DNA of 64,000 bases from an uncultured Eubacteriales bacterium (GTDB lineage: Bacteria > Bacillota > Clostridia > Oscillospirales > Oscillospiraceae): positions 150,263-214,262 of the forward strand of contig CAJKDY010000001.1 in assembly GCA_905198835.1 (NCBI GenBank), in the 5' to 3' direction. The translations under genes and the position numbers were made by a program. How positions within the stretch are numbered: the first letter of the stretch is position 1; every line of letters begins with the position of its first letter. Shown here piece after piece: positions 1 through 42,679 of the stretch. The notes beneath the pieces were generated by a model, which saw only the letters and a program-made list of their open reading frames with translations, was not told the origin of the DNA and did not search any database.

Positions 1-5
1 CCACT

Positions 6-6000: not shown

Positions 6001-9000
6001 AGAGCGTGGCGCCTGGCGACTATGTGGCTAAGGAGACCGTGACCATCGGCGGCGTCACCTACCAGGCTGGTGACCTGATCCTGGCGGCCTCCACGACCTC
6101 CGCGGCGACGTTGGAGAGCTGGAAGCAGAGCGGCGACGAGCGCTACGACGCGGTGACCATCTTCCGGGTGGGCAGCTACACCGTCCACATGACCCGGATC
6201 AACGTGCCCATCCTGCCCATCACCCTGGACGACATGGAGGCCTTCCAGCTGGAGAACCTCCACCGCGATCTGGTCCAGATCGGCGCCATCATGACCGGCC
6301 CGGACTACAACGACGTGTTGCTCGACGAGAACAACGAGCTGCTGCCGCCCGCGGTGAAGGACAAGACCACCGACCCCGTGACCTATTGCGCGCCCAACTT
6401 CGATCCGGAGCATCCCTACTACCTGCTGACGCTGGATCACCGTATGAACGTCATGTGGCTGGAGATGGACTTCCCGACCACCGGGCCGGACGCGAAGACC
6501 GTTACCATCACTTCCGCCGACGTCCGCAGCCAGTTCCCCGAGTCTTACTATTACCCGCAGCTCAACGAGACGGTAACTCCGGGCCAGAAGGTCGGCATCA
6601 AGTTCGGCGATCAGTACTACGCCGACGAGAACTTCAAGACCCTGCTCCAGGTCACCGTCAAGGGCGACAACCCGGTGGGCAACATCGCCAGATACATGAT
6701 CTGGGTGGTCCGGGGCGAGCGCAGCGACAGCGAAAGCGAGCTGGACGTGAACGTGTACTACGGTCTCAACCAGACCGAGGCCCACGACGCGGCCACCAAG
6801 GGTGACGTGACCTACGAGGCCATTCTGACCCAGGCCACGGAGCGCTACACCAATGATCCCACCCACGCCGCCGAGCTTGGCGCGGGCACCGCGGCTGACC
6901 TCACCGAGGAAGAGCTGTGGGGCACCCTCTACTGGTTCGACGCCGACCAGGACGGCACCGCTGAGATCCACGTCTGGCCCGGCGTGCTGGAGAGCGCACA
7001 GGCCCTCTATGTGGACACCACCGACAGCAACACCATCAAGGTGGCCAAGACCGAGGAGGCCGTCCCCGACGATCCCACCAACCCGGGCAGTAAGATGCCC
7101 ATCCTGGCAAAGGTGAACGGCTTCAGCACCACGCGCTACCTCTACACCGCCACCCTGCCCATGTCCGCCAAGAACCTGACTTTGGACCTGAAGGAGTTTG
7201 GCGCCAGCGGCATGGACCACGTCAGCGTGGTGTATAACAACCAGTACTACCACGCCGACACTGCCAACGCCATCGGCTCCATCGCCGACGACGAGCCCAG
7301 ACCCGACTTCCAGCTGGATACCCTGGTGGACGTGGCCCTGAAGCGGGGCGAGCAGCTGAGCTACATCTTTGTCACTGTCCATCCCGATCTGGCCACCGCG
7401 CCTGACGGCATCACCAAGGATGACAAGTACTACATCGACAACGCCACCACCTATGTCATCCGGGTGACTCGCTTGAACAACCAGGCCTTCGAGAACATCT
7501 GGGTCACAGACACCGAGTACACCCACCGCAAGGACGTGGTCTCTGACGACAACCGGCCCGAGTACTTCGAGCAGATGTGGCTCATGGAGGACTCCGGTGC
7601 GCCCAAGACCGAGTACCAGCTGGCGCAGAAGCTGCTGGATCCCAGCACCAACCTGGGCGAGACCTACACCGACACTCAGGGCAATGTCAAGCTGAAGTAC
7701 GACGTCAACGACGACGGCGTGGTGGACACCGCGGACATCGCCTACCTGGTGGATCTGACCTGGCTGCCCGACGAGGATGGCACCGTGGTCAACAAGTGGG
7801 GCAATACCTACACTGCCACCAAGCATGAGCAGCTGCACAACATCTACGACCGGGACGTGAACCGTATGCACGCTGACTACGGCGTCTATGTGGACACCCT
7901 GGACACCTATATCCTGCTCAACGCTTTGGCTCCCGGCAACACCGCCGACGGCCCCGGCGCCAACCCCGATTACTACATTATCATCGAGGAATACGGCGTC
8001 AGCGAGCCGCAGATGGTGGACTCCCGCACCTTCGGACAGGGCCCGGGCAAGATCATCGATGCCCAGTTCCGTCTGGACGCCAGCAAGGAAGAGCAGATCT
8101 TCCAGTTCACCATCGTCAACACCACCGACGGTACCGAGGGCGTCTACTTCCTCCACGTCTACCGCTACATCCCCGACGACGCGGTATACAAGGTCCAGAC
8201 CCACATCGTGGGCAACCTGGAGACCGCCGCCAAGCGCGTGCCCGACACCGCCAAGCACCGGGATTACTCCTTCACCTGGACGGTGTACCGCAAGACCGAC
8301 CTGCTGCGGTACTACCAGGGCCTGGACGCCGACCTGACCACGGATCCCTCCGGCTTCACCCTGGAGGCGGAGACCACGCTCAACCCGGCCATCCCGCACC
8401 CGTACACCACCAAGGCCGTTGGTTGGTACACGGTGGATCAGGCGGTGGAGAAGTACCTGCCCAGCCTGATGACCCTGTCCTACACCGAGCGGTTCGCCGC
8501 GTTGCTGGATCCCGCCAACCTGGCGGCCTTCGGCGGCACCGCGCCGCTGATCGAGGTGGCCACGGGCACCCAGATCGACGACCAGAAGGGCGATTACCAT
8601 ATCGACCTGACCGACCAGGCCCCCGGCGCCTACATGATCGTCTTCCAGCGCAAGGGCAGTTTGGACCTGCTGTACGACAACGTGCTGGTCTACAACACCT
8701 ACGCGCCTGCCAAGTACGACTTCGGCACCGACTTCCTGGTGGCCGGCGATCTGAACCACGATGGCGAGATCGACAAGCTGGACCTGGGTATGTTCGACCA
8801 GTACAAGGCCGCTGTGGACGGTGTATACCGTGACCTGCTGGCTCGCACGGTGGTCACCAAGCTGAGTGTCACCACCAACTCCGGCTGGACTGGCTCCTTC
8901 GTGACCGGCGATACGCTCACCGGCGCTATGGCCAAGGCCGGCATCACCGTGGCGTATGAGGGCATCGATGTCACCTCGCCCGCCGCCACCGTGGGTCCGG

Positions 9001-10031
9001 ATAAGTTCGCCGTGGACGGCAGCTTGAAGTTCTACCTCAGCACCCGCGCCGACCTCCAGACCATGGCGGACCTCACCGCCGCCGGCGCCACCTTGCTGGA
9101 CGCTACCGGCTACACCTTCACCACCGCCGACGAGGGCCAGCCGCTCTACCTCTACGCCGCCTTTAAGTTCTTTGACAGCGGCATGGACGATGACGACTCT
9201 GTGGACGTGGCCTTCCAGGTCCAGAGCATCACCGTCACCGATCCCGCCGCCACGACCTCCGCCACCACGGCCTCCGCAATGACTGCCGAGCGGTACATCG
9301 CGCCGGTGGAGCGCACGGACGCGGAGCATGACGAGACCGAAGAACTGCCCGTGGACGAGGATGTTGTGGAGGTCCTGGACCTGGTCACCGGCGAGCGGCT
9401 ATCCATGGAAGTCGCCGTGCTCCAGAGCATGGACGACGTGGCTGAACTGCCCATGGACCTGACCGGCGAGGACGAGACCGAGACCGTAGCCGAGCTGCCC
9501 GTCCTGACCGACGACGTAGCCGAGCTACCTGTCCTCACTGACGACGTAGCCGAGTTGCCCGCCGACGAGACGTCCGGATCCGACGACCACGAAGACGCCG
9601 CTAGCATCGAGCACACCGGCAGCGCCGACCACCGGCTGGAGGAGACGTCCGACTACGACGAGCGCGAGGAGATCCCCGTCTTTGACGAGGAGGACTGGAA
9701 CACCGCAGTGGAGCTGCCCGCTGAGGACGGCTACGAGAGCTTGGTCACAGACCCCGTCACCAGCAGCGCCCAGAAGCTGGCCGAGTACCTGTTCACCAAC
9801 GGCATCAGTTTGGACAGCGCCGAGGGCCAGGCCCTGCTCATGGAGATGATCATCTTGGGCAACGCCAACTTCGACGCCAACATCCTGGACCTGGACGGCA
9901 GCAAGATCCTGACCGACGCCGACGCTGCCTTCATCCACGATAACTGGGGCTTCACCGCTTACGGCTCCTGCCGCCTGGACAATATGTACCATCGCTACCA
10001 GGCCATTTTGGAGCCCTGGTCCACCATCTGA
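6..10031 (+). CDS. Giant secreted surface protein 1 (5'-truncated at window edge; at least 3341 aa). It is built of Ig-like beta-sandwich repeats and has an acidic repetitive linker. Dockerin-like Ca-binding loops lie at roughly nt 7696-7760, 8743-8812 and 9883-9940.
   Basis: An uninterrupted ORF runs from the window edge in frame. Composition is Thr/Asp/Gly/Tyr/Val-rich, acidic and low in Lys. Repeated ...YT(V/L)x(V/I) strand-ending motifs are present. Dockerin-type loops are KYDVNDDGVVDTADIAYLVDL, GDLNHDGEIDKLDLGMF and LDLDGSKILTDADAAFI. A terminator hairpin follows the stop. Confidence 0.85.
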   Translation: MTSLNGGVPVSVSVPFSALSNLTRNADGTVATVDVNDTVGGVNLSLTDATDGPITVTFNNAIRTRYELRDVIAQPGVTRMTIKVTSEDRTVSREYTVTIIRKTDPDAAKLRDIQMFQGVETIPDGETVETQGLTLMKYLTPGDYYDFSPVFDPDNIRYFFAVPELMTGDIYLNPVTFSDASYDIVASTYRNGQVQIPNRNVTDNVIIVPALNPGETFRVELNITRKGNGASVGGSTNYTLYFYKNDATEQLITATNDLRERVDYSPFSDLKLDSVPLTRNASSTANASDHNFYYNTTNATVDLTLNLFALAANNGGYKVYWADMSTYDPMTGEPVWNEITDLQGVTTLGMADKNSKWFVLKATDQVNKFYSSIAVYRDPGGLHDTKLENLAVSKPTVPLFRDDRYEYFAAVDVETGTAKIIAQAKTGGSYLTELRVRSVGGEYLAGDILSNGARVETGDIKLHQGSNRVTVTVKHVVTDAAAVATTTTGGQVTKPSVEERTYKRAYEIELYLAGETAYVVDKDAEGNYQQTYTTDRNGFKQETYVPVHGAGTEADNRMDREERLDTADIIWMDYTSGGYLTPIWNSDLVDYFLSYPYFSNEYEYEYEYDEHGALKLDAAGKPVPKYNEYGLPVPKRYTSGPKKGEVVYLVNDHLNLKATLRPEEVDRATVKVDLVTVDPVTGDKTYYATETLNRDPGTGEFIYAIPNLHEGESQITFTVQVKGKDYVTGTTNFTDALITEKHYMITVYRALTDQYEQPNVADNTAIRVNGTGNFAGQVFGTIPDFDPEINFYYLNLPNEARDVELCAQPGVFEKVLGTTKTRTTYTLIVNGKTVAASDFSAGILNKLPIHDLMVGDNTVEIDITVPGQATKYYTFILNVGDAEQKKLDATVDANWPLPSMTNIRINTTLGGALGTDETLIPGFHSNIHYYNVVVPYNVDQVYAYGAATEAGELRIASINVDDVRWDATAADKLTAELEGWRNLPIPLKVGNENNIEFVAYGRDAEGNVTNTMVRYIVNVVRLPEGYVAPELEFLGISEGTMTPTFHGRTNNYYATVPYDMESVNVESFGTTYGAMGIVTKPADTPASIVKMVGGDSVSVGQALYVADSLKLNVGDNLIRVYLYDVRDVPDGGYPYYIGVYSLTIHREAKDGVVMELGEGERQKTDVNGDPLYEADGVTPVTETVPAISVQRVDKNGISVAGAHKLNLSYEFNEYTNYLYVEREDTAVIFHANAIHDRNLVTVNGVAMPADDSGVRVTIPADNTSVVVIAVTDPVTGTMKRYTVTVVRGRTEAQAATTPELGYNFPGIIRNIQVSGLDASKAPATVAASTLAVSGEVKISPYEGTITLANGHTYTGKLVDITVEALYDMGRLTTRATAATRVRINGHTAKMSPGSSDQTRRYTVTLPMNTYTDRFDIRVDFPRVTGTGATAQVERIDNISYVLMITDEANAPHEVDTTVEESIYGDIVKPLRWTQEDYEAWVADETAKGTTALSLSDWTIATGHTIGEFKYTDKVITGPQLAEIQLDENDGTVHSGTFTTKFHGDVFSYRATAQGDTFSVYATVESDNGRAMYADTHYRRAVRSYVDHYGQQVNIGDYIDAAGNRILGQYQGHYDTSVIPNVFQTSYTDANSHVVQVATSTDGKGNLVIGAGDWVDANGNFVAGTEAAALAALTPAQLEAITADRTTYIEVYDEQDNRFTVSKSGDYVHFKFPTDDAGKRKVMNLTFRVIQYADSGYELVSEYKLRVYPTSEPIIDDLRLYQSRMNGPKPFDPLEREYYGEVYKRQDGYGVYAHAEYFDLGDTAWRDGKLTMVARYPELAPYDTGVLDPKTGMPLILQPGQKYLVEDAPLTVEGRTYQPGDEVEYKEMWYLNDGTAWVANDKARKDDYRYYEYQMTGHTAIADVNGKNPGDADYIPTYQPDTSVTWGHEDFSGYFPQETLPDISGNNTQWTDLYAANPGYAYADKPYLPWDLSKFDVIVSLTYPYKQNTANTSYVDSKGQSVAPGDYVAKETVTIGGVTYQAGDLILAASTTSAATLESWKQSGDERYDAVTIFRVGSYTVHMTRINVPILPITLDDMEAFQLENLHRDLVQIGAIMTGPDYNDVLLDENNELLPPAVKDKTTDPVTYCAPNFDPEHPYYLLTLDHRMNVMWLEMDFPTTGPDAKTVTITSADVRSQFPESYYYPQLNETVTPGQKVGIKFGDQYYADENFKTLLQVTVKGDNPVGNIARYMIWVVRGERSDSESELDVNVYYGLNQTEAHDAATKGDVTYEAILTQATERYTNDPTHAAELGAGTAADLTEEELWGTLYWFDADQDGTAEIHVWPGVLESAQALYVDTTDSNTIKVAKTEEAVPDDPTNPGSKMPILAKVNGFSTTRYLYTATLPMSAKNLTLDLKEFGASGMDHVSVVYNNQYYHADTANAIGSIADDEPRPDFQLDTLVDVALKRGEQLSYIFVTVHPDLATAPDGITKDDKYYIDNATTYVIRVTRLNNQAFENIWVTDTEYTHRKDVVSDDNRPEYFEQMWLMEDSGAPKTEYQLAQKLLDPSTNLGETYTDTQGNVKLKYDVNDDGVVDTADIAYLVDLTWLPDEDGTVVNKWGNTYTATKHEQLHNIYDRDVNRMHADYGVYVDTLDTYILLNALAPGNTADGPGANPDYYIIIEEYGVSEPQMVDSRTFGQGPGKIIDAQFRLDASKEEQIFQFTIVNTTDGTEGVYFLHVYRYIPDDAVYKVQTHIVGNLETAAKRVPDTAKHRDYSFTWTVYRKTDLLRYYQGLDADLTTDPSGFTLEAETTLNPAIPHPYTTKAVGWYTVDQAVEKYLPSLMTLSYTERFAALLDPANLAAFGGTAPLIEVATGTQIDDQKGDYHIDLTDQAPGAYMIVFQRKGSLDLLYDNVLVYNTYAPAKYDFGTDFLVAGDLNHDGEIDKLDLGMFDQYKAAVDGVYRDLLARTVVTKLSVTTNSGWTGSFVTGDTLTGAMAKAGITVAYEGIDVTSPAATVGPDKFAVDGSLKFYLSTRADLQTMADLTAAGATLLDATGYTFTTADEGQPLYLYAAFKFFDSGMDDDDSVDVAFQVQSITVTDPAATTSATTASAMTAERYIAPVERTDAEHDETEELPVDEDVVEVLDLVTGERLSMEVAVLQSMDDVAELPMDLTGEDETETVAELPVLTDDVAELPVLTDDVAELPADETSGSDDHEDAASIEHTGSADHRLEETSDYDEREEIPVFDEEDWNTAVELPAEDGYESLVTDPVTSSAQKLAEYLFTNGISLDSAEGQALLMEMIILGNANFDANILDLDGSKILTDADAAFIHDNWGFTAYGSCRLDNMYHRYQAILEPWSTI
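9486..9563 (+). repeat. Tandem 30-nt in-frame repeats (2.6 copies) encoding VAELPVLTDD in the acidic C-terminal linker of giant protein 1.
   Basis: The copies gtagccgagctgcccgtcctgaccgacgac, gtagccgagctacctgtcctcactgacgac and gtagccgagttgcccgcc encode the same peptide but differ at synonymous positions. Confidence 0.8.
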
Positions 10032-10060
10032 TCCAAGGCCCGAGTTTCGCACAGACCCTT

Positions 10061-27072: not shown

Positions 27073-27139
27073 GACCTCGGCATCCATCGACAAAACGACC
27101 TGTACGTTCCCCGTCGGGACAAAAAAGGAAGTGTCTGCC

Positions 27140-36100: not shown

Positions 36101-39100
36101 GACTACGCCAAACTGACCTGGACGCCCACAGGCGAGCCCTCTGAGAGCATCTGGGCCGACGCCAAACCGGTCGGCAATCCCGGCGCGTCCAACCGTCCCT
36201 GGGATGACGTATCCAGTATGATCGTCAAAGAGGGCAGCACCGTCACCTTGGATGTGACCTTGGACAGTAACCCCGTCAGTGGGGAGTCGGACGTGATCCT
36301 GGCCGCCTTTGTGGTGTGGAAGGACCGGGGCACCATCGTTACGCTGACGCCCAGCTATCCCGCCGGCCGGACCGTGCTGACCGGGCTGGAGGGCGTGACG
36401 GAAAGCGCTTCGGGCGCGCCGGACTTTGATAACGCTCTGGCCGACGCCACCGCCTCGTTCAAGATGCCCATGGGCGATGTGGAGGTCTATGTGGTGACCA
36501 CTACCGAGCCGCCCACCGACCCTTGGCACACCGTGGCCCTGGTGGCTACCGACCACAGCCCCACCGGCAACAACTCCGGCAACAACGAGGGCGACCTCTG
36601 GAACCACAAGGACACCACGGATAAACGCGTGGCCAAGTCTGACAATGTGCCCACCATCGCCTGGGTCACTGTCACCGAGACCGAGACCATTTCCGTCCTG
36701 CCCCGAGCCGCCGCGGGCTACCGCTTCAACGACCCGGCGGTGATGACCGGCAACGACGGCGTCACCCAGAATCTCACCACCCCCAACGGCAATTTCCTCT
36801 ACGACGTCTCCTCCATCCTCTGCAACCAGGTCATCCACATCGACTTTGAAAGCGGAGACGATCTGGAGCTCACCGTGGAGATCGAAGACCCGGATAACCC
36901 AGGCGACGGCACTGTGGAGCAGGTGGTCACCGCCGACCCGGCCGGCGCCGCGCCGCCCACCCTCCGCTTGACCTCCACCTCTGTGGCCGGGTCCTATCAG
37001 ATCATGAAGGGGGTCACCGCCGGCGGTGCTGTCCAGCTGACGGCCAAGCCCTACAAGGATGCCCAGCGGCAGTATTCCGCCTACGCCACCCTCTACTATA
37101 TCGACGGCACCAGCGACAACGTCCCCTTGACCGACGCGGATGGTGACGGCGTGTGGGAGGGCTCCTTCCCCATGCCCGCCAACAACGCCCGGGTGGTGGT
37201 CACCTTCTACGACGGCTACACCGGCACTCTCACCCTGGTCAATCGCATTACCGGCGACGCCACCGGCCAGGCCGCTATGACCGAGGACAAGCGGGGGCTG
37301 ATGCCGCTCGCCGTCCACTCCATGCGCACCACCGACTCCTTCCAGAGCCTGCCCAATGGCACCGGCCTGGACGCCTACATCACAAGCTCCATGACCGGCC
37401 GCACGGTAAAGGGGCTTTTGAAGCGCAACGGCGTCACCACCATCCTGCCCGGTACCAACACCGGCATCGTGGGCGACCCCACCCACTTCTACCACACCAT
37501 CGACCGCGCCGACGCGGAGATCATCCTGATCCTGGATAGCCCCACCGAGCACCCCGACAGCTATCTGGCTGCCGTGAACTGGGTGGGTCTGCCCGCGGGC
37601 ACCGACCATCCTGAGATCGAGGACAAGACCACCGCCGGACAGCTCCGGGGCGGGGACAACGCCTGGACCACCGCCGTCAAGGACGACACCGTGGAGGTCA
37701 CTTTGAACGTGCCCTTTGGCTACAAGGCCACCGTCCGTGCCGACGGCGCCGACGTGACCCTCAGCGCCACCGGGCCCTTTGACGGTCCTGCCAACCCCGG
37801 CGCGCCCACCACGCAGACCGTCACCTTCTCCATGCCCGCCCGGGATACGCAGATCACCGTGACCTACACCAAGACCATCTTCGACCTGACGCTCCGGGTC
37901 ATCGACACCAGCAACTCCGGCGCGAACGCCACCGCCGTCACCCCCGCCTCCGGTATCGTCTCCGGCGGGCCCAGCCTGACCGCCAATGGCCAGAGCATGA
38001 CGGTAAGAGCCGGCGGCAATGTGGACGTCTCCGCCACGCCGGCCACCGGCGCTGTGGCTCCGGCCAAGGATCCCCACGTGGTGGCCGTCTACTACCACAC
38101 CGCGTCTGGCGCCACCACCTGGCTGGAGCCCAGCGCTCTGGCTCCGGGCGCGGCGTCGGCGAAGGCCTTTACCATGCCTGAGGACGATGTGACCGTCACC
38201 GTCATCTACGACAATGACCACACCGACAAGCCTGAGGACAAATACTATATCGCCTCTGTAGAGGTGGTGGACCCGGACCACGACCCGGGCAACCGGGCCG
38301 TCAGCATCGTCAACCTCCCCGCCGCCGGCCTGCCCACGGGCAGTCCCAGCTGGGCCGCGGGCTACGGGGGCAGCGAGATGAAGGTCTCCTATGAGGCGGC
38401 AAACGGTTATTACGTCACTGTCACCGCCCGCCGGGCGGACAACGGGGCGGACATTCCCGTGCTGCAGATGGGCTCTACCGCCAACGGCACCGGCTCTGTG
38501 ACCATGCCCTGGGCCAACATCATCATTACTCTGACCTACTCCAAGGATAAGCCCGACCAGCAAAACGACGTGGCCCTCCAGCTCCTGGGCCATGAGGCCC
38601 TGGCCGCCAACGAGGCCGCCACCAGCAACTTTACCGATTCCACCCAGCTTGTGGGCCTTGCCACCAACGGCACGACCGCCAACCACGCTCCCCATGTGCC
38701 CGCCTACACCCAAAACACCGACCCCGTGGAGACGGTGCGCTCCGCCGCCAAGCTGGGCGACGATCTGCGGACTCTGGCCGGCAGTGCCGCGGGCAGCCAG
38801 GTGGTGCGTATGACGGTGGCAGTGCGCAAGGTGACAAGGGACGGCGTCACCGGCGAGGTCACAGCGGTCTCTGAGACGCCGGAGGTAGATCTGCTGGTGA
38901 GCAAGTATAACGGCTCTGCCACCTCCCGGGCCCCCGCGCCCATTACCCACAGCCCCGATGAGGAGATCGTCATCCGGGTCTACTACGGCAATATCTACAC
39001 CGCCACCTTCCACCTGGTGGGCGAGGATCCCACCGATACCCATACCGCCACCGATACCGTGGCCTACACCCATGCCTACGATTCCTCCGATGCCGCGCTG

Positions 39101-42100
39101 ACCAAGCCCATCCAGAACGACCTGGACCGCTTTGAGGGCTATCAGGGCGACGGCGCTGAGGACATCCAGACCACCGCCACCGCCGGGCCTGGCCGCAGAG
39201 TGGTAGACGTGGTGTGGGAGAGCGATCTCACCGGCGCGGCCTCCGCCACCCCGATAACGGGCACGGACCGCTATGACTTTACCATGCCCGCTGACGATGT
39301 GGACTTCTACGCCTTCTTTGAAACCGAGCCCACCGACCCCGACGAGCGCTCTTACATTGCTAAGGTGGCCTTTGACCCCGCCAGCCAGCACCGAGACAAC
39401 AGTCAAAACGCCGTCACCATTGCCAACACCACCGACACCGCCGCACCCAAGGGCAAATATTGGGTGCGGGCCAAGGACGGCGACGGCATCGAGGTCACAG
39501 TCAAGGTGGCCCAGGGCTACCAGGCCCAGATCGTCACCACCAAGATCGACGATGCCACCAAGCTGGGCGATCTGCCGGATATCAACGATGCCGGCACCCT
39601 CCGCAAGCCGCTGGCTACCGACGACTATCAGTATTACATCTCCCGCACCCAGTTTGTCTATAACCTGCCCGCGGGCAAGGAGGCCACCTTCACCATGCCC
39701 AAGGACACCGACGCCACGGTGACGGTGAAGTTCACCAAGGGCTACGACCTGTCCCTACGGGTCTCCGACGCCAGCTTGCTGGACGCCGTGGGCTTTACCA
39801 CCGAGGAGAACACGGTGGATCTGACCCACGACGCCACGGACCACCTGAAATGGAAGAACGACGTCACCACCGCTGATGCCGCCATCGCCACCGACGGCGC
39901 CTATGACCCCGATCCCTCCACCCTCCAGGACCGGCCCGGCGGCAAGCGGGTCACCACCGATGTGGGCGTCTACGACCCGGACATGAAGGTCCGCGTCACC
40001 CGTACCACGCCCTTCACCGGCACAGCCACCTTGCTCAACATCCCGCCGGACACCAACTATCCCTTTGCTATGCCCTATGAGGACACCCTGGTCAGCGTCC
40101 TGCTGCAAGACAAGGACGCCACGGACGATCTGCTGGCCAAGGTGGAGCTGAGAGGGGATAGCGACGTCACCGGCAACACAGCCACCCCGGTGGTGGACCA
40201 CGACGATCCCGCCCCGGCCACTACCACCGGCACGGTCTGGACCACCACCTCTGAGGGGAACGTCATCGACCTGACCCTCACCGTGGCCCAGGGCTATGTG
40301 GCCAAGATCAAGGTCCGCCGGGACGACAGCATCGACCCCAATGACCCCACCGACGAGAGCAAGTGGGTCTACCTGGACGCCCAGGACTACGTCTTCCAGC
40401 GGGTGTGGACCGAGGCGGACACCTCCACCGGCGCGCTGCCGGGGGCCACGGTGGAAAAGTCGGAGAATATGGTCATCGCCCACGGCGTCACCGAGGTCCA
40501 GGTGGGCTACGACCCCGCCGCCCTGCCCCAGCAGCTGTTCCCCGACTCCATTGGCGGTCAGCAGCACTTCCGCTTCGTCATGCCCAAGGACCAGACCACT
40601 CCCACCGCCGACAGCAAGACCGACGTGACCATCCTGGTGGAGTTCGTCCGGGTCAGCACCATGCCCAAGCCCTTTGACCCCCGCAATGTCAACGCAACCG
40701 TCCGGGGCGTGACCTATGACCACCAGCCCAGTTTCCTGGAGGAGGGCTTCATCTACGGGGAAAACCGGGGCGATTACGCCGTGGTGGAGATCCCCACCCT
40801 GGCCATGGACGAGGATGGCGTAGGCAAGCACCTCTATGACACCGATAACTATGACGAGCCCGCCTCCGGCGATCCCAAGGACAAAAAGCCCGTCATGGAC
40901 ATCAAGCGTTTTACCTTCGCCCTGCGCACCGTCTCTTCCGGCGGCGCGGTGAGCTACCAGCGTCTGGATCTGGACACCGATGTGATCCTGGTGCCCTGGA
41001 GGGAAGACGAGCTACTAGATCCGGCCGATCCCTACAACTACTATGTGGGCGAGGACCAGGGCATGTGGTCCAGCGACGACTCCCGCTACTGGCAGACCAA
41101 CGCTGCGGATAAGGGCACGGATCACGACTTTGTGGGCTCCAAGTTCAAGCTCTATCCCGCCGAGCCCAACCCCAAGACCGGCCTGCGTACCGCCGGGGCC
41201 CAGGCCCTCTACGATATGCTCAATAACAATGGCTCCTTGGAGACCTACACCGCTCCCGACCCCGCCGACGCAACCAAGACCGTTACCAAGTACCGCACCC
41301 AACTGATGGTCCGGGCCGAGGACGCCGCCAACCAAAGCGAATATACCGAGGTCTGGATCCGCCCGTGGTTTGCCCTGGGCGTGAAGGTCAACTCCTACGG
41401 CCCCACCCATCCCGTGGAGGGCAAGCTCTACCGGCTGATGACCGAGCATGAGTTGAACGTGGCCAACGGCTACTGGGATGAGGACGAGAATGTCCTGCCT
41501 ACCACCACCCTCACCGCCCCGGAGACGCCGGACGCGGACAACTTCCAGCACTATAAGTGGGACGACGACGCCGAGCCCACCTTGGAGGACTCGGTGGTGC
41601 TGGAGGGCGAGGGCCAGGGCAAGTGGCTGCAGATCCTGCGCATGCGCTCTTCCGAGCTGCTGGGCGGCTTCACCAGCGCCTATGATCCCAGAGAGCAGGT
41701 CTCCGACCCGGCCAAGGCTGACGACCGCACGCTGCTGGATAACGTCAGCGCCGGGCAGGACCTGATGTACGCCCTGGAGATCGGCAAGACCTCCAACCTG
41801 ACCTACACCCGTATCAAGCTGGACCTGGATCCCCACAGCGCCGCCTACGCCGCGCCCAATGCGCCGCTGACGGACTACTACGAGGAGATAAACGGCAAGA
41901 GCGACTACACCACCCGTACCTTCATGCTTCAGGATACCGTTCAGCTCATCGCCGGCGACGTGGACCAAAACGGCGCTACCAAGGTCCAGGACTATGACGC
42001 GGTCTACGACTTTGTCTACCGCTCCAAGAAGTGGACCGACGTGAAGACCGAGCCCGTGGAGCCTGCCACCGGACCTGACGCGGCCTACGCCGCGGCCATG

Positions 42101-42679
42101 GAGCAGTGGGCCATCTCGGTCTACAATCCCGAAAGCGCCGCCTACCGCTGCGACCTGGACGGCGATCGCCGGCTCACGGTGGTGGACCTGAACATCGTCA
42201 ATACCCGCTTCAACTATAACCGCACCGAGGAGGACTACCACTGGTACTACCAGGACAGCTCCAAGGTCTGGCAGCACATTCTGCCCTTCGGCATGGGGCC
42301 CCGGGACGAGACCAACTACGACGCCCTGTTTGCCCTGCGGAGCATCGGCGAGGGAGAGATCTTCACCGATCCCTACTGGGACGAGACCGTGGATCCCGCC
42401 CAGCTGAGCGCGGCGCCTATGGAGACCTTCTTCATCGGAGCGGACGGCGTCTTCCGCCTGGACACCGAGATCCCCGAGACCCCCAGCCTGCCCGCTCCCG
42501 ACGATGAGACCGCCAACCCCCACAACGAGCGGGTGGAGACCCCCATGGGCGAGGAGGCGTTTGGTCACGGCCAGGCCGCCTTCTTCCCTGAGGACGCGAC
42601 CCCGGCTTTGCCCGAGGAGCCCCAGGAGCCGGCGGCGGGCGACGACCCGCCCGCCTGGGAGGAACCCGGCCAGGACTGA
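27140..42679 (+). CDS. Giant secreted protein 4 (5179 aa). It has a signal peptide and an N-terminal cohesin-like module. At least 18 copies of a ~110-290 aa beta-rich repeat end in F-x-M-P-x-x-D-V-x-V. A C-terminal dockerin-like loop pair and a Pro/Glu-rich acidic tail follow.
   Basis: RBS AGGAAG lies 8 nt before the ATG at 27140 (the ORF track begins at an in-frame GTG at 27131). The signal peptide is MKQKWNRLLASLLCALMLCSDLSGLMPRAAAA. The cohesin-like signature is TVFWVGIGVDRTQLLELVKDGKGLSSLEAGFYYDNTIIEPY. Repeat ends include YAFTMPDQDCVVRVAY, GFTMPSGDVTVYVKF, AFTMPEDDVTVTVIY and TFTMPKDTDATVTVKF. C-terminal loops are GDVDQNGATKVQDYDAVYDF and CDLDGDRRLTVVDLNIV. Confidence 0.9.
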   Translation: MKQKWNRLLASLLCALMLCSDLSGLMPRAAAAPAASTPTTVTNTGVQDEFRDEANGRPNLFVSFLGDNNNYVYSATNAALTRLNDASLNTISVPAPYDQSGYDNPTGPGNDSSGAWFQYKNYPDCAPANLNKTVFWVGIGVDRTQLLELVKDGKGLSSLEAGFYYDNTIIEPYIDPTKLPVGVTMATATDEQKQEAYRQTIAQANIANGKYPANTQWSSDYTILRALSGVEPPETDPVTREELEQATMDDIMNNTLYTSAGQSQWKMTYVSLELSDIASETANRRLAGAYQGVDKLPQGVDDEGNPVPIVPDSAQGDQYIVDGDPTSGYDYNYLLLIPFRLKNYGSTDWTPLRLVRDATHFSIGGSTWGVDDYGAWERTTTRNGAVTGSAGDANTLSVESHPDRDLKLLTRFAGDLNLFSPGRTAEYEYDALLRIIGDGGSLNHAKLTVKGDPAVWPVWADTNGDIIGGLQSGQGMHLDVHTQDNYVATVTVTYYQDDGAGGEELVYHQYTQTLSGAHDNSYEFVMPAFTRVGTRRVTVTVAFTYQAGDNALVYLTEIPQPGDADHAVGNETTIRTSLTAAYAPTGNTETINSYSPTSAHPNYSHPGLTHPNTPVANAKKDQYVEIQVETHADYAAVVQIYDFKAQCFVTGGLNINATGVSGVTPDQTEIDNPAHLADPTDPSIPAKIKSGRITLPQGGTIGLRMGSQDLDVIITYEKGQRRQATLEVYNTNADAVNFNLNTAQLVYDRYDALNQPSKAYSSVTYHDYDKDALGTVTTDDHRAIKGTNKLPWISASQASLSGSLGGDTGRTGKSWEPTALPTAQQEVLGGMTVMALLASATQKSDFQATINGMDLACAVVDDGSASGLTGLRKNAQGELYGDPDVSAALDADIDKPTIVDALWELRQAIDADTSTGGLKDTYLKTVTKAADGSVAYTYYDLTPAQVQAYLLEIFEAAQIKAENDLAYRIAYRRYLTILNDYNAVKDIPAYSGMAALAAPAVNLSTTVANGKREYQYSDYKSVYLAQYDQYLDDYEQYLADLDANAGTGGAGAPTAPTTYPGATAPGKKTISLKTPSAAVSAVGAHTWTAAAVPTEVPAGQNGNTIETRSGRTVYIVLEADSAYELDTANTDIFQRGPAPGYATGTRIASANPVAVPGYQNVYAFTMPDQDCVVRVAYKLRGTRKLNITYKNAAGLDDNEAIVEVYSVATPPAVTPKLNTITNKGYTTGTLPSGGSYDAYTDTYVTDPVEDAFKGSTVTIRAKAADGYEVKSVEAKNSDNTVITVTKRPADDPADGDVYTFVIAQGRDDDINLVITYGPEVDEVFTATIDSTTEGSIDGGNKATWYVKNGSVVSTPRVLSDVRPSTHLVGHVTVAPGYYIKSVTAWGASGNYPYTITGNGYNNGFGTALTGTNIPIEIYVDMPHEDLVVDVVFAKGPPDPAPDNALTLIVKDDDNTEADPAKAAANWASARVFDQRPTGLATAIPEQTLPSAGALPGDQLGKNAGHGNGTLTDRKYVETGKWVLVDFSAAVVLKPDTSEGAPAGAMVVDTEKSYYVSSVTVGPDHLGVALVWEGPTSVSFYMPAGSTAVTVEFSKYPANGRLPDYVLTVRETYTDLNAGAPTPPNTDQYSYITSARSATIGRWSTLPEGGVNVPGRALDWNTNPELVPPKDEKNGTGAATAGEEVTMTFDVDEGDGTAANPGWYYQSVVLISNGAATRLSDNVTEKSRTTKVIAGKTTTVVTYQVKFYMPASGAEFVVNYRKGPKPTIPDYAFTLILDDPHNVLNTATNMWDENSVQASFQDPTGAAGSHDPLEVGHNKTAMAAVQHIHAGDIITLKTTIAAGYYLEYMIVNPAGLKIYPVWSDANTASFTMPTEGVAVVARVVKGTPQEYTANLILRYEDENGNQILPAGKTIHDIGRGTFVIPNPANPGSTLGSLDDYARKAVYSTVQLPGTDIPYDLYAFDGYYIDRITVEPVVLGVTGSLSGSCGYQDGDVTMPHASINVNVWFKAGWPDEIPYDLTIRVHDSSLDPGRTPSMTQNNYAALRTVAGRAPAPVVASGDKDAVYGGQTKRIDGSDYILDRDTVILDIHTMPGFHVDADTIKLTDTRGDPVAWWYVPGGIAYTQPPRSVIADITFKQGDPADKYTATLHLSGYTAGDTSSERDILNDYVLLSAQTGNTHAMTTSQAAGTTAPPAAVNTDTAVITDLYHGDALDLAIRPGAGRHISSVYAINRTTGDVIPIYGYDTTGTLTATAVQYVPGRAGTPTDNSTTPPTPAIPGTLTKGAFAMPQSDVDVYVNYATGTISATDMVVKLIVSGLTGSGSATADITEPAPSAGQSMTVAAAGVDTRFTAQGNEAVVTFDPAAGYGIAKLEVTNNATGASVPYQWISMLQDPAIVDNTDGSGNPQDNTDLWSGVAPAPGITHPTYKPNPKKQIQLTVPSGGVTIHVTYAKESTQPFRAQVVVNDPLSGDPNSRNNAWLSQKAGADTDDPVQKKLQTALPGEWVDLDITVHPGYRIEYVKVVPQSFGIVPGLPIGTDMGSGVTYYLHDQSTGFTMPSGDVTVYVKFVADGVGTKNVTLAVKGAPTGNNANHATITSPPSGTKGPVYVQGSPQSVSARPKVDWVTVDYEWDVATSAVASITVQTTSDSANVPFTQVLDPATGKGKLTFPMIDDDVIVTITYKDDPTPVGQQVVLHVIDKDRNAAQAILLDNDNYGRLQYAGNAAIGAVAADTGKVGLTQALEDAGTFAVTETILVPAGQSVDVTACSNPTDPNGPVYIESAYVLFEQNGQMIHFNLTPDSLLGGTGPGYSGLHDPVTDPQSFVVHPGRNDVYVTLTRKAPRADEHAAVLMIRSPSTDTQSEAGIHADQTVAAWNDADPARRDKVRANDPDDSHAYVTATDGEKITISVEPASGYVIDYVQITPLGFPLDTDPVYHFDRTGNTITFDMPHVNVAVTVYLKRGSDTNFKATLHYIQDPVCVAHGKPPQEEDYAKLTWTPTGEPSESIWADAKPVGNPGASNRPWDDVSSMIVKEGSTVTLDVTLDSNPVSGESDVILAAFVVWKDRGTIVTLTPSYPAGRTVLTGLEGVTESASGAPDFDNALADATASFKMPMGDVEVYVVTTTEPPTDPWHTVALVATDHSPTGNNSGNNEGDLWNHKDTTDKRVAKSDNVPTIAWVTVTETETISVLPRAAAGYRFNDPAVMTGNDGVTQNLTTPNGNFLYDVSSILCNQVIHIDFESGDDLELTVEIEDPDNPGDGTVEQVVTADPAGAAPPTLRLTSTSVAGSYQIMKGVTAGGAVQLTAKPYKDAQRQYSAYATLYYIDGTSDNVPLTDADGDGVWEGSFPMPANNARVVVTFYDGYTGTLTLVNRITGDATGQAAMTEDKRGLMPLAVHSMRTTDSFQSLPNGTGLDAYITSSMTGRTVKGLLKRNGVTTILPGTNTGIVGDPTHFYHTIDRADAEIILILDSPTEHPDSYLAAVNWVGLPAGTDHPEIEDKTTAGQLRGGDNAWTTAVKDDTVEVTLNVPFGYKATVRADGADVTLSATGPFDGPANPGAPTTQTVTFSMPARDTQITVTYTKTIFDLTLRVIDTSNSGANATAVTPASGIVSGGPSLTANGQSMTVRAGGNVDVSATPATGAVAPAKDPHVVAVYYHTASGATTWLEPSALAPGAASAKAFTMPEDDVTVTVIYDNDHTDKPEDKYYIASVEVVDPDHDPGNRAVSIVNLPAAGLPTGSPSWAAGYGGSEMKVSYEAANGYYVTVTARRADNGADIPVLQMGSTANGTGSVTMPWANIIITLTYSKDKPDQQNDVALQLLGHEALAANEAATSNFTDSTQLVGLATNGTTANHAPHVPAYTQNTDPVETVRSAAKLGDDLRTLAGSAAGSQVVRMTVAVRKVTRDGVTGEVTAVSETPEVDLLVSKYNGSATSRAPAPITHSPDEEIVIRVYYGNIYTATFHLVGEDPTDTHTATDTVAYTHAYDSSDAALTKPIQNDLDRFEGYQGDGAEDIQTTATAGPGRRVVDVVWESDLTGAASATPITGTDRYDFTMPADDVDFYAFFETEPTDPDERSYIAKVAFDPASQHRDNSQNAVTIANTTDTAAPKGKYWVRAKDGDGIEVTVKVAQGYQAQIVTTKIDDATKLGDLPDINDAGTLRKPLATDDYQYYISRTQFVYNLPAGKEATFTMPKDTDATVTVKFTKGYDLSLRVSDASLLDAVGFTTEENTVDLTHDATDHLKWKNDVTTADAAIATDGAYDPDPSTLQDRPGGKRVTTDVGVYDPDMKVRVTRTTPFTGTATLLNIPPDTNYPFAMPYEDTLVSVLLQDKDATDDLLAKVELRGDSDVTGNTATPVVDHDDPAPATTTGTVWTTTSEGNVIDLTLTVAQGYVAKIKVRRDDSIDPNDPTDESKWVYLDAQDYVFQRVWTEADTSTGALPGATVEKSENMVIAHGVTEVQVGYDPAALPQQLFPDSIGGQQHFRFVMPKDQTTPTADSKTDVTILVEFVRVSTMPKPFDPRNVNATVRGVTYDHQPSFLEEGFIYGENRGDYAVVEIPTLAMDEDGVGKHLYDTDNYDEPASGDPKDKKPVMDIKRFTFALRTVSSGGAVSYQRLDLDTDVILVPWREDELLDPADPYNYYVGEDQGMWSSDDSRYWQTNAADKGTDHDFVGSKFKLYPAEPNPKTGLRTAGAQALYDMLNNNGSLETYTAPDPADATKTVTKYRTQLMVRAEDAANQSEYTEVWIRPWFALGVKVNSYGPTHPVEGKLYRLMTEHELNVANGYWDEDENVLPTTTLTAPETPDADNFQHYKWDDDAEPTLEDSVVLEGEGQGKWLQILRMRSSELLGGFTSAYDPREQVSDPAKADDRTLLDNVSAGQDLMYALEIGKTSNLTYTRIKLDLDPHSAAYAAPNAPLTDYYEEINGKSDYTTRTFMLQDTVQLIAGDVDQNGATKVQDYDAVYDFVYRSKKWTDVKTEPVEPATGPDAAYAAAMEQWAISVYNPESAAYRCDLDGDRRLTVVDLNIVNTRFNYNRTEEDYHWYYQDSSKVWQHILPFGMGPRDETNYDALFALRSIGEGEIFTDPYWDETVDPAQLSAAPMETFFIGADGVFRLDTEIPETPSLPAPDDETANPHNERVETPMGEEAFGHGQAAFFPEDATPALPEEPQEPAAGDDPPAWEEPGQD
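27290..27960 (+). other. Cohesin-like module of giant protein 4 (approximate bounds).
   Basis: VFWVGIGV...LEAGFYYDNTIIEPY shares its signature with protein 3 and resembles the cohesin core strands. Confidence 0.45.
30480..40660 (+). repeat. Array of at least 18 protein-level repeats inside giant gene 4. Each ends with the motif [FY]-x-M-P-x-x-[DN]-[VT]-x-[VI]-x-[VI], and many begin with (P)DYxxTLxL.
   Basis: Repeat ends were read at about 30.63, 31.87, 32.38, 32.74, 33.12, 33.99, 34.80, 35.14, 35.97, 36.46, 37.17, 37.83, 38.17, 38.50, 39.28, 39.69, 40.06 and 40.58 kb. One further copy is in giant gene 2 (~14.38 kb). Confidence 0.7.
41953..42210 (+). other. Dockerin-like region of giant protein 4: two Ca-binding loops about 55 aa apart.
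   Basis: GDVDQNGATKVQDYDAVYDF and CDLDGDRRLTVVDLNIVNTRF both fit the D1/D3/[DN]5/D12 plus hydrophobic-helix pattern. Confidence 0.5.

What the first reader, a model, noticed from the sequence alone, without database searches (positions are those of the whole stretch)
7696..42210. Atypical dockerin-like Ca-binding loops: singletons and widely spaced pairs
Every loop fits the dockerin/EF-hand consensus (D1-x-[ND]3-x-[DN]5-G-x-x-[DNT]9-x-x-D12 plus an amphipathic helix). Examples are YDVNDDGVVDTADIAYL, GDLNHDGEIDKLDLGMF, LDLDGSKILTDADAAFI, GDVDMDGAVTVADALTL, GDVNTDGKRDSV...CDVNNDRNINNIDANQL and GDVDQNGATKVQDYDAVY...CDLDGDRRLTVVDLNIV. Canonical dockerins carry two loops 8-10 residues apart. Here the pairs are 55-60 residues apart (proteins 2 and 4), or the loops occur singly hundreds of residues apart (proteins 1 and 3). 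This may be a divergent dockerin with a large insert, or a distinct Ca-dependent module.
Basis: partly seen in the sequence, partly recalled or inferred. Interest (0 to 1): 0.6.

Follow-up and report, generated by a model that had tools for sequence, protein, structure and literature searches.

The report
Divergent dockerin modules on giant surface proteins
The calcium-loop motifs are real and are best read as stretched, single-repeat or partly decayed versions of dockerins (protein "plugs" known from cellulosomes), sitting on four huge secreted proteins of a human-gut Oscillospiraceae bacterium, one of which is the tail of a 42,508-residue protein; the socket they would plug into was not found.

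Summary
The strict loop pattern occurs 4 times against 0.15 expected.

- **Protein 2:** its C-terminal pair belongs to a previously unnamed family of at least 322 protein clusters, built as an Ig-like domain plus dockerin. The family profile hits solved dockerins across both repeats, 36 of 42 members hit Pfam Dockerin_1, and one passes the curated cut-off. Loop-to-loop spacing is 39-71 residues in the family (64 here), against 33-36 in canonical dockerins.
- **Protein 3:** its "singleton" is the same module with a second loop that has decayed in this lineage. Distant orthologues keep it.
- **Protein 4:** the pair is a probable, more diverged member.
- **Protein 1:** two conserved single repeats. 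One follows a beta-sandwich whose only PDB relatives are X-modules of type II X-dockerin dyads. A third loop is a lineage-specific insertion.

Long-linker and single-repeat dockerins are already published for Ruminococcus flavefaciens, so this is a new variant of a known kind.

No cohesin was detected, and structure prediction was inconclusive (pLDDT 62). The gene cluster (giant protein, dockerin proteins, SLH-anchored protein) is conserved.

The parts
6..10031 (+). p1: C-terminal 3,341 codons of a giant gene. The ORF is open at the left edge of the window, and the product is called as 42,508 aa on the source contigs.
   Evidence: Cadherin-like domains
7701..7736 (+). p1 loop A (DVNDDGVVDTAD, aa 2566-2577). 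Canonical 12-residue loop inside a lineage-specific insertion.
   Evidence: Present only in the window and in L001. Missing in L003, L004, L005 and L006, which keep the following helix. Sub-threshold Dockerin_1 hit, 16.4 bits.
8481..8741 (+). p1 beta-sandwich (aa 2826-2912) directly before loop B; X-module-like.
   Evidence: Profile A5, which excludes the loop: the five best PDB hits are all X-modules of type II X-dockerin dyads (5g5d_B and 2b59_B E=0.006, then 3kcp_A, 4wi0_B, 4u3s_B).
8748..8855 (+). p1 loop B plus helices (DLNHDGEIDKLD..., aa 2915-2950). A conserved single dockerin-type repeat.
   Evidence: Conserved in all 6 orthologues with no second loop. Profile A3 hits dockerins (4fl4_A 9.3e-5) and X-Doc chains across X-module plus repeat. 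Also found at the tail of a 20,017-aa and a 3,573-aa protein in distant clusters.
9309..9743 (+). p1 acidic low-complexity linker (aa ~3102-3246, with DDVAELPVLT repeats) between loop B and the C-terminal module.
   Evidence: Read directly from the sequence. The equivalent acidic segments in L012 and L013 differ in length.
9747..10028 (+). p1 C-terminal module (aa 3248-3341) with loop C (DLDGSKILTDAD, nt 9888-9923). Single dockerin/EF-type repeat plus a conserved tail (WG.TA...CRLDN).
   Evidence: Conserved in orthologues. Broadened profile A9: the top three PDB hits are dockerins (2y3n_B 7.7e-4, 2jnk_A 8.3e-4, 6kg9_A 1.4e-3), followed by calmodulins.
10325..16459 (+). p2 (2,044 aa from the ATG at 10325; the longest ORF starts at 10205). 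Secreted large protein.
   Evidence: an exact match for the 10325 start is on record
16049..16456 (+). p2 C-terminal Ig-like plus long-linker dockerin module. Loop 1 with a 10-aa insertion at nt 16151-16216; loop 2 (DVNNDRNINNID) at nt 16343-16378.
16552..27072 (+). p3 (3,506 aa), secreted, with C-terminal SLH cell-wall anchor (nt 26647-27018).
18448..18831 (+). p3 internal Ig-like plus dockerin module (aa 633-760). Loop 1 is invariant (nt 18565-18600); the second repeat has decayed (nt 18670-18720).
   Evidence: Family profile scores 42.8 bits over positions 5-84. L005, L006 and L011 orthologues keep an intact loop 2. Loop 1 residues are invariant across 7 orthologues.
27131..42679 (+). p4 (5,182 aa), secreted, with no recognised anchor and an acidic/proline-rich tail.
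41885..42235 (+). p4 near-C-terminal dockerin-like module. Loop 1 at nt 41957-41992, loop 2 (DLDGDRRLTVVD) at nt 42152-42187, D1-D1 spacing 65 aa.
   Evidence: hhalign against the family: probability 69%, E=4.3e-5, collinear over both loops. The only PDB hits are the dockerin 4uyp_B/4uyq_B, E=0.04. Shares the 'YR.CD.[DN].DR' signature with the p2 family.

Best explanation
The eight loops are dockerin-type calcium-binding repeats (a 12-residue loop followed by a helix) in different evolutionary states. They sit on the products of a conserved Oscillospiraceae surface-protein gene cluster.

**What each site is**
- **p2 and, probably, p4:** complete two-repeat dockerins preceded by an Ig-like domain. 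The segment between the repeats is stretched, and in p2 there are also 10 extra residues inside loop 1.
- **p3 (the SLH-anchored protein):** the same module in an internal position, with the second loop decayed in this lineage.
- **p1 (tail of the 42,508-residue protein):** an X-module-like beta-sandwich plus one repeat, then a variable acidic linker, then a second single repeat at the very C-terminus.
- **p1 loop at residue 2566:** a recent insertion.

**Inferred mechanism (not shown)**
On binding Ca2+ the repeats fold and present their helices to a receptor domain. That receptor would be cohesin-like or something not yet recognisable, located on a cell-wall-anchored partner. The adjacent SLH protein p3 is the obvious candidate. 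In this way the anchorless giant proteins p1, p2 and p4 would be tethered non-covalently into one large surface assembly.
For: **Motifs are real and non-random:**

**p2 module**
- Its family has 322 clusters at E<=1e-3 and 140 at E<=1e-10, mostly at the C-terminus of 1,200-2,000-aa proteins.
- The family profile's best PDB hits are all dockerins. The top alignment spans both repeats (4dh2_B, E=0.0021).
- 36 of 42 members hit Pfam Dockerin_1 (best 4.8e-9), and 30 of 42 hit Bact_surface_Ig-like upstream.
- Member P0050 passes the Pfam cut-off, 26 against 22.9 bits.
- The family runs continuously from near-canonical (spacing 39-44, 12-residue loop 1 in 41 of 89) to stretched forms (up to 71; loop 1 extended by up to 19 residues).

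**p3:** 42.8 bits to the family profile. The second loop is intact in L005, L006 and L011.

**p4:**

**p1:** X-module hits, dockerin hits, conserved in orthologues.

**Context**
- p1, p2 and p4 have no recognisable anchor. Signal peptides are visible at the N-termini of p2, p3 and p4; the N-terminus of p1 lies outside the window. Only p3 has SLH.
- p1-p2-p3 synteny holds in five to six genomes.
- In distant clusters the same modules recur beside a 20,017-aa protein, YDG/SLH proteins and an S8 peptidase that carries its own C-terminal dockerin-like pair.

**Published precedents:** long inter-repeat segments and single-repeat dockerins that still bind a cohesin (PMC2930009; PMC12270676).

**AF2 secondary structure:** a helix follows each loop, outside the beta part.
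Against: - No cohesin was found. There was no Pfam Cohesin hit in 55 overlapping tiles of p1-p4 or in neighbours of distant members. PDB searches with p2 and with a 7-orthologue profile of p3 gave none either.
- All window sequences score below Pfam's Dockerin_1 cut-off (14-20.6 bits against 22.9).
- The fold is not established: pLDDT 46 and 62 with the loops below 50, and no fold-search match.
- The p4 evidence is only moderate, and no p4 orthologue could be retrieved.
- For the p1 C-terminal module, calmodulin-type EF-hands score nearly as well as dockerins.
- Neither Ca2+ binding nor partner binding has been tested.
Confidence: 0.6

Rival explanations
1. The loops are purely structural Ca2+ sites. 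They are dockerin-derived or convergent EF-hand-like loops that rigidify or stabilise very long extracellular proteins, as Ca2+ does in cadherins and RTX or Big adhesins. In this reading they have no docking partner.
For: - No cohesin is detectable anywhere in the cluster.
- Loops come and go as local insertions: p1 2566, and a 'DSDGDGILDADTNQDG' insertion only in L001.
- The p3 module is internal and has lost one loop.
- The proteins carry Cadherin-like and Ig-like domains.
Against: - The p2-type module is nearly always at the extreme C-terminus, which is where dockerins sit.
- The second loop plus helix (CDVNNDRNINNIDAN) is invariant among homologues that are only about 40-65% identical elsewhere in the module. 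That is more constraint than Ca2+ ligation alone needs, because helix residues are conserved too.
- Several unrelated proteins in one cluster carry the module, including an S8 peptidase. That is the pattern of a shared docking tag.
- p1, p2 and p4 otherwise lack any anchor.
Confidence: 0.25
2. The motifs belong to another Ca2+-loop family with the same DxDxDG core, such as thrombospondin type 3 repeats or FG-GAP/VCBS beta-propeller loops. In that case the resemblance to dockerins would be superficial.
For: The DxDxDGxxD core is shared by these families (established knowledge). Giant bacterial proteins with mixed dockerin and TSP3 repeats have been described (bioRxiv 10.1101/2023.11.21.568195). 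The L001 insertion looks TSP3-like.
Against: - No TSP_3, FG-GAP or VCBS family is listed in the Pfam output; one search shows only the 25 most frequent of 42 families.
- The profile hits extend beyond the loop into the following helix, and for p2 across both repeats, and they are to dockerins.
- Each loop is followed by an amphipathic helix pattern rather than the beta-strand of FG-GAP.
- The loops are not in tandem arrays.
Confidence: 0.05
3. The motifs are chance matches in aspartate-, asparagine- and glycine-rich proteins.
For: The proteins contain 9% Asp. A very loose pattern is not enriched (6 observed against 3.2 expected).
Against: - Strict patterns are 25- to 75-fold enriched.
- Seven of the eight sites are conserved in orthologues at 30-45% identity.
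- The p2 module defines a family of at least 322 clusters.
Confidence: 0.02

Closest known systems
Ruminococcus flavefaciens group 1 (type III) dockerins
   Same: Two Ca2+ repeats separated by an unusually long segment (37-45 aa, PMC2930009). That is comparable to about 32 aa in p2 and about 42 aa in p4 after the first helix. Both have non-canonical loop lengths. Both come from Oscillospirales gut bacteria.
   Different: - The group 1 signatures VxIMQxxxNP and ALxIQKxxL are absent.
- Here the atypical loop is loop 1, with an insertion of up to 19 residues. Loop 2 is 12 residues with an invariant Arg at position 6.
- The modules sit on giant non-enzymatic surface proteins of a bacterium with no sign of a cellulosome, and no cohesin was detected.
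R. flavefaciens group 2 'naturally truncated' single-repeat dockerins (PDB 9GVB)
   Same: A single Ca2+-binding repeat of about 40 aa at a protein C-terminus that is still functional in cohesin binding (PMC12270676). This is the precedent for the p1 singletons and the half-decayed p3 module.
   Different: Sequence similarity is only marginal (9gvb_B E=0.76). p1 has two separated single repeats, and one of them follows an X-like module.
Type II X-module-dockerin dyad (C. thermocellum CipA XDocII, PDB 2B59, 5G5D, 3KCP; A. cellulolyticus 4WI0, 4U3S)
   Same: A beta-sandwich immediately N-terminal to the first dockerin repeat. The p1 sandwich alone retrieves only these X-modules from the PDB. In known systems the partner cohesins sit on SLH-anchored proteins, and an SLH protein is encoded two genes downstream here.
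   Different: Only one repeat follows the X-like module. The next repeat is 380 residues away, beyond a beta-rich segment and an acidic linker. The E-values are marginal (0.006).
Dockerin-type giant proteins of Omnitrophota and giant genes of Oscillospiraceae (bioRxiv 10.1101/2023.11.21.568195)
   Same: Dockerin or EF-hand repeats on giant extracellular proteins. The preprint predicts dockerin-like helices flanking an inserted beta-barrel, a precedent for split dockerins. It also reports a class of giant Oscillospiraceae genes from human, mouse and rabbit gut and from Pseudoflavonifractor, the same host range as loci L001-L006.
   Different: The preprint describes the Oscillospiraceae proteins as RCC1-repeat proteins without anchors. 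It does not describe their C-terminal modules or the neighbouring dockerin and SLH genes. I could not read upstream of the window to confirm that p1 belongs to that class.

Membership tests
Dockerin (Pfam PF00404 Dockerin_1) | Two tandem repeats, each a 12-residue EF-hand-like Ca2+ loop followed by a helix | tested here: met
   Applies to p2 and p4 only. p4 has two 12-residue loops (K at position 9 of loop 1, R at position 6 of loop 2). p2 has a canonical loop 2, and loop 1 carries a 10-residue insertion before the aligned acidic residue. p3 keeps only loop 1 in this lineage. The p1 sites are single repeats.
Dockerin (Pfam PF00404 Dockerin_1) | Compact module of about 60-70 aa, with repeats separated by a short linker (D1-D1 about 33-36) | tested here: not met
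   D1-D1 spacing is 64 in p2 and 65 in p4. The family range is 39-71 with median 48. Three solved dockerins give 33-36.
Dockerin (Pfam PF00404 Dockerin_1) | Score at or above the curated gathering cut-off (22.9 bits) | tested here: not met
   Window modules score 14.1-20.6 bits, each matching half of the model. Family member P0050 passes (26 bits over model positions 2-51), and 36 of 42 members hit at E<=0.1.
Dockerin (Pfam PF00404 Dockerin_1) | Profile-level sequence homology to experimentally solved dockerins over both repeats | tested here: met
   For the A2 family profile, the six best PDB hits are all dockerins. The best, 4dh2_B (E=0.0021), aligns profile positions 40-105 to chain positions 7-64. 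For p4 the evidence is hhalign probability 69% against A2 and phmmer hits to a dockerin only, E=0.04.
Dockerin (Pfam PF00404 Dockerin_1) | Three-helix fold with two Ca2+ sites | tested here: inconclusive
Dockerin (Pfam PF00404 Dockerin_1) | A cognate cohesin partner and Ca2+-dependent binding to it | not testable with these tools
   No Pfam Cohesin hit in 55 tiles of p1-p4. None on record in neighbours of distant members. None in PDB searches with p2, p3 or the p3 orthologue profile. The rest of the genome and the first ~39,000 residues of the giant protein could not be searched, and binding needs an experiment.
Type II X-module-dockerin dyad | Ig-like X-module fused directly upstream of the dockerin | tested here: met
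   For the p1 beta-sandwich profile A5 (loop excluded), the five best PDB hits are X-modules of X-Doc dyads, E=0.006-0.42. A3 aligns across the X-module plus the first repeat of 2b59_B, 3kcp_A and 5g5d_B. The E-values are marginal.
Type II X-module-dockerin dyad | Complete two-repeat dockerin immediately after the X-module | tested here: not met
   All six orthologues have one loop followed by helices and no second loop within about 300 residues.
R. flavefaciens group 1 dockerins | Signature motifs VxIMQxxxNP (first helix) and ALxIQKxxL (second helix), per PMC2930009 | tested here: not met
   Read directly from the sequence. p2 has EYHIEDRVGVDP and NQLDKNAR; p4 has YDAVYDFVYR and LNIVNTRF. Only a weak I...[DN]P echo is present. 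The long inter-repeat segment itself is shared.
R. flavefaciens group 2 single-repeat dockerins | One Ca2+ repeat of about 40 aa at the C-terminus, homologous to the second half of group 4 dockerins | tested here: inconclusive
   The architecture matches for the p1 C-terminal module. Sequence similarity to 9gvb_B is only E=0.76 and was obtained with the other p1 repeat. Profile A9 hits other dockerins at 7.7e-4 to 1.4e-3.
Calmodulin-type EF-hand | Helix-loop-helix with an entering helix, usually paired, with Pfam EF-hand matches | tested here: inconclusive
   For the p1 C-terminal module, the A4 profile's best PDB hit is calmodulin, E=0.019. One of six orthologues hits EF-hand_6/1/7. With the broader A9 profile, dockerins outrank calmodulins.
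Thrombospondin type 3 / FG-GAP / VCBS Ca2+ loops | Tandem DxDxDGxxD loops in TSP3 wires or beta-propeller blades, with matching Pfam models | tested here: not met
   No such family is listed in the Pfam output; one search shows only the 25 most frequent of 42 families. The loops are not tandem and are followed by helix-type periodicity.

The most novel reading that the evidence does not exclude
The modules are the assembly system of a multi-megadalton, non-cellulosomal surface complex. A 42,508-residue protein and its large neighbours p2 and p4 would be plugged onto the SLH-anchored p3 through dockerin-derived modules. The receptor would not be a recognisable cohesin. In the giant protein, the two single repeats (after the X-like module, and at the extreme C-terminus) would be the two halves of one split dockerin that closes around a 170-560-residue, largely acidic, disordered insert.
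Probability: 0.15. Interest if true: 0.8.

Novelty: new variant of a known kind. Interest (0 to 1): 0.5.

Why it matters
Dockerins are known mainly as the plugs that build cellulosomes.

- **A new setting.** Here a distinct, unannotated dockerin lineage of at least 322 protein clusters, none of the ten looked up carrying a name, marks a conserved gene cluster in gut Oscillospiraceae. The cluster includes some of the largest bacterial genes on record (products called as 42,508 and 20,017 residues).
- **A testable answer.** The preprint that describes giant genes in this bacterial family notes that their products have no membrane anchor. The modules found here offer a concrete, testable explanation of how such proteins stay on the cell.
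- **An evolutionary series.** The family shows canonical, stretched, half-decayed and single-repeat forms within one homologous module. That is useful for understanding how much of a dockerin is needed for function.
- **An open gap.** No cohesin could be detected. Either the receptor is very divergent or it is of a new type.

Tried and rejected
1. **Structure prediction of the p2 module.** With 8 sequences pLDDT was 45.8; with 42 it was 61.8. Neither is confident enough.
3. **Homologues of the p4 C-terminus.** None turned up with a 162-aa query, a 1,300-aa query or a metagenome scan. Comparative analysis of p4 was therefore impossible.
4. **Metagenome scan with the p1 C-terminal profile.** The first attempt was rejected for lack of a conserved stretch. 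The second found one locus with the same C-terminal sequence as L003.
5. **Cohesin searches.** Whole proteins and tiles against Pfam, and single sequences and an orthologue profile against the PDB, gave nothing.
6. **Similarity among the four proteins.** BLASTP found only the 41-residue Ig-plus-loop match between p2 and p3. The loops are therefore not part of a repeated domain array.
7. **Cluster look-up for names.** None of ten family members carries any annotation.
8. **Ideas considered and rejected.** Chance occurrence was rejected. TSP3 or FG-GAP identity was rejected because no such Pfam hits were reported and a helix follows each loop.
9. **hhalign of the p1 modules against the p2 family.** Only the loop itself aligned (probability 27% and 1%). 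The p1 repeats are therefore not members of the p2-type family, even though they are dockerin-like.
Full report
**1. What is in the window**

The window is 62.6% G+C. Its first 42.7 kb is filled by four + strand ORFs:

| Protein | Window coordinates | Length |
|---|---|---|
| p1 | 6-10031 (open at the left edge) | 3,341 aa |
| p2 | 10205-16459 | 2,084 aa |
| p3 | 16552-27072 | 3,506 aa |
| p4 | 27131-42679 | 5,182 aa |

- p2, p3 and p4 begin with signal-peptide-like sequences. All four are rich in Thr, Asp, Val, Ala and Gly.
- Pfam sees very little: Cadherin-like domains in p1, Big_2 and SLH at the end of p3, and nothing in p4.
- Downstream genes are housekeeping, including comEC, holA, an RNase M5-like Toprim gene and infC. 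There is also a second SLH protein.
- Related loci come from Oscillospiraceae MAGs of rabbit and mouse gut and from Pseudoflavonifractor phocaeensis.
- The exact p2 sequence is on 0.2-1 Mb contigs, at least one of them from a human gut metagenome.

**2. Checking the observation**

- All eight quoted peptides are at the stated coordinates.
- The strict loop pattern occurs 4 times, against 0.15 expected from composition-preserving shuffles.
The strict pattern has no match elsewhere in the six frames of the window.
- The claim that every loop fits the consensus is overstated.
  - p2 loop 1 has Lys at position 12.
  - p4 loop 1 has Lys at position 9.
  - The p1 C-terminal loop has Ser5 and Lys6.
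  - Both second loops have Arg at position 6.
- D1-to-D1 spacing is 64 residues in p2 and 65 in p4. Three solved dockerins printed by the PDB search give 33-36.

**3. The p2 pair**

- The last 145 residues of p2 have homologues with an invariant R-[VT]-C-DVNNDRNINNIDAN second repeat. They also share GDVNxDG and DE..E.RV.DPLGY.
- A profile of these, scored against 1.84 billion cluster representatives, found 322 clusters at E<=1e-3 and 140 at E<=1e-10. Most hits lie at the extreme C-terminus of proteins of 1,200-2,000 residues.
- From a 42-sequence alignment of the module (A2):
  - The profile's six best PDB hits are all dockerins. The top one (4dh2_B, E=0.0021) aligns across both repeats.
  - 36 of 42 members hit Pfam Dockerin_1 (best 4.8e-9).
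  - 30 of 42 hit Bact_surface_Ig-like for the beta part upstream.
  - One member, P0050, exceeds the Pfam cut-off over both repeats.
- Within the family, spacing runs from 39 to 71 residues. Loop 1 is a canonical 12 residues in 41 of 89 sequences and carries insertions of up to 19 residues in the rest.
- p2 is therefore a stretched member of a genuine dockerin lineage that is always preceded by an Ig-like domain.

**4. The p3 'singleton'**

- The family profile matches p3 residues 633-709 at 42.8 bits. That covers the Ig part, loop 1 and the linker up to the 'YRV' that precedes loop 2.
- In the window, L001, L002, L003 and L004, the second loop is degenerate.
- In the more distant orthologues L005 and L006, and in the L011 homologue, it is intact. 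Examples are RVCDVDRNGTVDGGDVALL and YRVCDVDGNGTVNISD.
- Loop 1 (PIPGDVDMDGAVT.ADA) is invariant across seven orthologues that are only about 32% identical overall.
- This is a two-repeat module that lost one loop in this lineage. It sits internally in the only SLH-anchored protein of the set.

**5. The p4 pair**

- No homologue of the p4 C-terminus could be retrieved.
- Against the family alignment, hhalign gives probability 69% and E=4.3e-5, with both loops collinear and the extra length in the linker.
- The only PDB sequences that p4's module hits at E<=10 are versions of one dockerin (4uyp_B/4uyq_B, E=0.04).
- p4 shares the 'YR.CD.[DN].DR' signature with Arg at position 6.
- I rate dockerin homology here as probable, not established.

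**6. The three p1 loops**

Orthologue alignments from loci L001-L006 show three different situations.

- **Loop at 2566.** It lies in an insertion present only in the window and L001. The helix after it is older than the loop.
- **Loop at 2915.**
  - It is conserved in all six orthologues and is never followed by a second loop.
  - Its profile hits dockerins (4fl4_A, 9.3e-5) and X-Doc chains across the upstream sandwich plus the repeat.
  - The sandwich alone, with the loop removed, retrieves as its five best PDB hits only X-modules of type II X-dockerin dyads (E=0.006-0.42).
- **C-terminal loop at 3295.**
  - It is conserved and is canonical in the orthologues.
  - With six close sequences the best PDB hit was calmodulin.
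  - After adding three distant homologues, the top three hits are dockerins (7.7e-4 to 1.4e-3), ahead of calmodulins. The alignment extends into a 'WG.T' motif that resembles the 'FG.T' after dockerin helices.

The p1 repeats do not belong to the p2-type family.

**7. Context**

- The gene call upstream of p2 on the source contigs has a product of 42,508 residues. p1 is therefore the tail of a giant protein.
- A preprint reports a class of giant Oscillospiraceae genes from human, mouse and rabbit gut and from Pseudoflavonifractor. It says their products lack membrane anchors. My loci have the same host range, but I could not read upstream to confirm that p1 belongs to that class.
- p1-p2-p3 synteny holds in L001, L003, L004, L006 and partly L005.
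- Neighbourhoods of distant family members repeat the theme.
  - **L011:** a p2-like protein is followed by a 3,152-aa YDG/SLH protein with an intact internal module.
  - **L013:** the module protein follows a 20,017-aa product. The tail of that product carries the same X-like-plus-repeat element and a C-terminal repeat (FVCDFNKDGVIDVMD).
  - **L012:** a 3,573-aa protein has the same tail pair, separated only by acidic low-complexity sequence. It sits beside a Cadherin-like protein ending in the Ig-plus-dockerin module, an MBG/YDG/SLH protein and an S8 peptidase with its own C-terminal dockerin-like pair.
- Several unrelated proteins in one cluster thus share a C-terminal tag, next to one wall-anchored protein. 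That is the pattern expected of a docking system.

**8. Mechanism**

- **Shown:** the motifs are real, conserved and dockerin-related. They occupy the positions that dockerins occupy. p1, p2 and p4 have no other recognisable anchor, while p3 has SLH.
- **Inferred:** Ca2+ folds the repeats, and the helices bind a receptor on a wall-anchored partner. This would assemble a very large surface structure, probably adhesive given the Cadherin-like, Ig-like and InlB-B-repeat-like domains.
- **Missing:** the receptor. No cohesin was detected by Pfam in tiles of all four proteins, by PDB searches with p2, p3 and a p3 orthologue profile, or in the recorded annotations of neighbours.
- **Main rival:** the loops are purely structural Ca2+ sites. 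I give this 0.25.

**9. Comparison with what is known**

- R. flavefaciens group 1 dockerins already have 37-45 residues between the repeats and non-12-residue loops (PMC2930009).
- Group 2 dockerins are natural single repeats that still bind the ScaE cohesin, two per cohesin (PMC12270676, PDB 9GVB).
- A review states that type III dockerins lack the second canonical loop (PMC12484212).
- Neither wide spacing nor singletons is therefore unprecedented.
- What appears new:
  - this particular lineage (Ig-like domain, insertion-prone loop 1, invariant Arg6 loop 2);
  - its non-cellulosomal setting on giant surface proteins;
  - the paired single repeats at the tail of the giant protein;
  - the absence of a detectable cohesin.

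**10. Limits**

- All window sequences are below the Pfam dockerin cut-off.
- Several PDB E-values are marginal (1e-3 to 1e-2).
- p4 rests on one sequence.
- Nothing about Ca2+ binding or partner binding has been measured.

**Verdict.** This is a real feature and a new variant of a known kind. Interest is moderate, and would be higher if the receptor proves novel or the giant protein's repeats form a split dockerin.

Noticed in passing
window 1-10031 (p1); L008-L010: p1 is only the 3' end of a giant gene. On the source contigs (0.2-1 Mb; one labelled human gut metagenome) the gene upstream of p2 has a called product of 42,508 residues. A homologous cluster (L013) has a 20,017-residue product in the same position. 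This may be the Oscillospiraceae giant-gene class described in bioRxiv 10.1101/2023.11.21.568195, but I could not read upstream of the window to check for RCC1 repeats.
   Followed up: partly
window 38777-42676 (p4 C-terminal 1,300 aa): p1, p2 and p3 have clear orthologues. The last 1,300 residues of p4 have no homologue at E<=1e-3 among 5.8 billion protein clusters, and none in a metagenome scan. p4 may be hypervariable or lineage-restricted.
   Followed up: partly
window 6-42679: The four giant proteins show no BLASTP-detectable similarity to one another and no internal repeats, apart from the 41-residue Ig-plus-loop match between p2 and p3. That is unusual for proteins of 2,000-5,000 residues.
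   Followed up: partly
window 10136-16537 (-), 18790-27345 (-), 35570-39406 (-) and others: Very long ORFs (up to 2,851 aa) lie antisense to the giant genes. They are most likely shadow ORFs caused by high G+C and codon bias, not genes.
   Followed up: no
L001, within the p1 orthologue, upstream of the X-like module (aligned near window ~8300): The closest relative carries an extra insertion, 'LGLNTLDSDGDGILDADTNQDGVV', that is absent from the window. It is a thrombospondin-type-3-like double DxDxDG motif. Together with the p1 2566 loop, it suggests that Ca2+-loop motifs are gained and lost as small insertions in these proteins.
   Followed up: no
L012 8300-9979; L013 10001-16267: In distant homologous clusters, an S8 (subtilisin-like) peptidase ends in a dockerin-like pair (DLDGDG...ADYNNDGVINVKD). 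The p2-like protein P0127 has, besides its internal Ig-plus-dockerin module, a second dockerin of near-canonical spacing at its C-terminus.
   Followed up: partly
window 9309-9743 (p1 aa ~3102-3246): A strongly acidic low-complexity stretch with short tandem units (DDVAELPVLT, DDVAELPA) lies between the two p1 single repeats. Equivalent acidic segments of very different length occur in L012 and L013.
   Followed up: no
window 50421-53663 and 53692-54672: A second SLH-anchored protein (1,080 aa, with a NAGPA phosphodiester glycosidase domain) lies about 8 kb downstream of the cluster. It is followed by a WYL/WCX-domain regulator.
   Followed up: no
whole window: The + strand, on which the four giant genes and most of the ORFs examined downstream lie, has a marked C excess over G (21,326 C against 18,764 G).
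   Followed up: no
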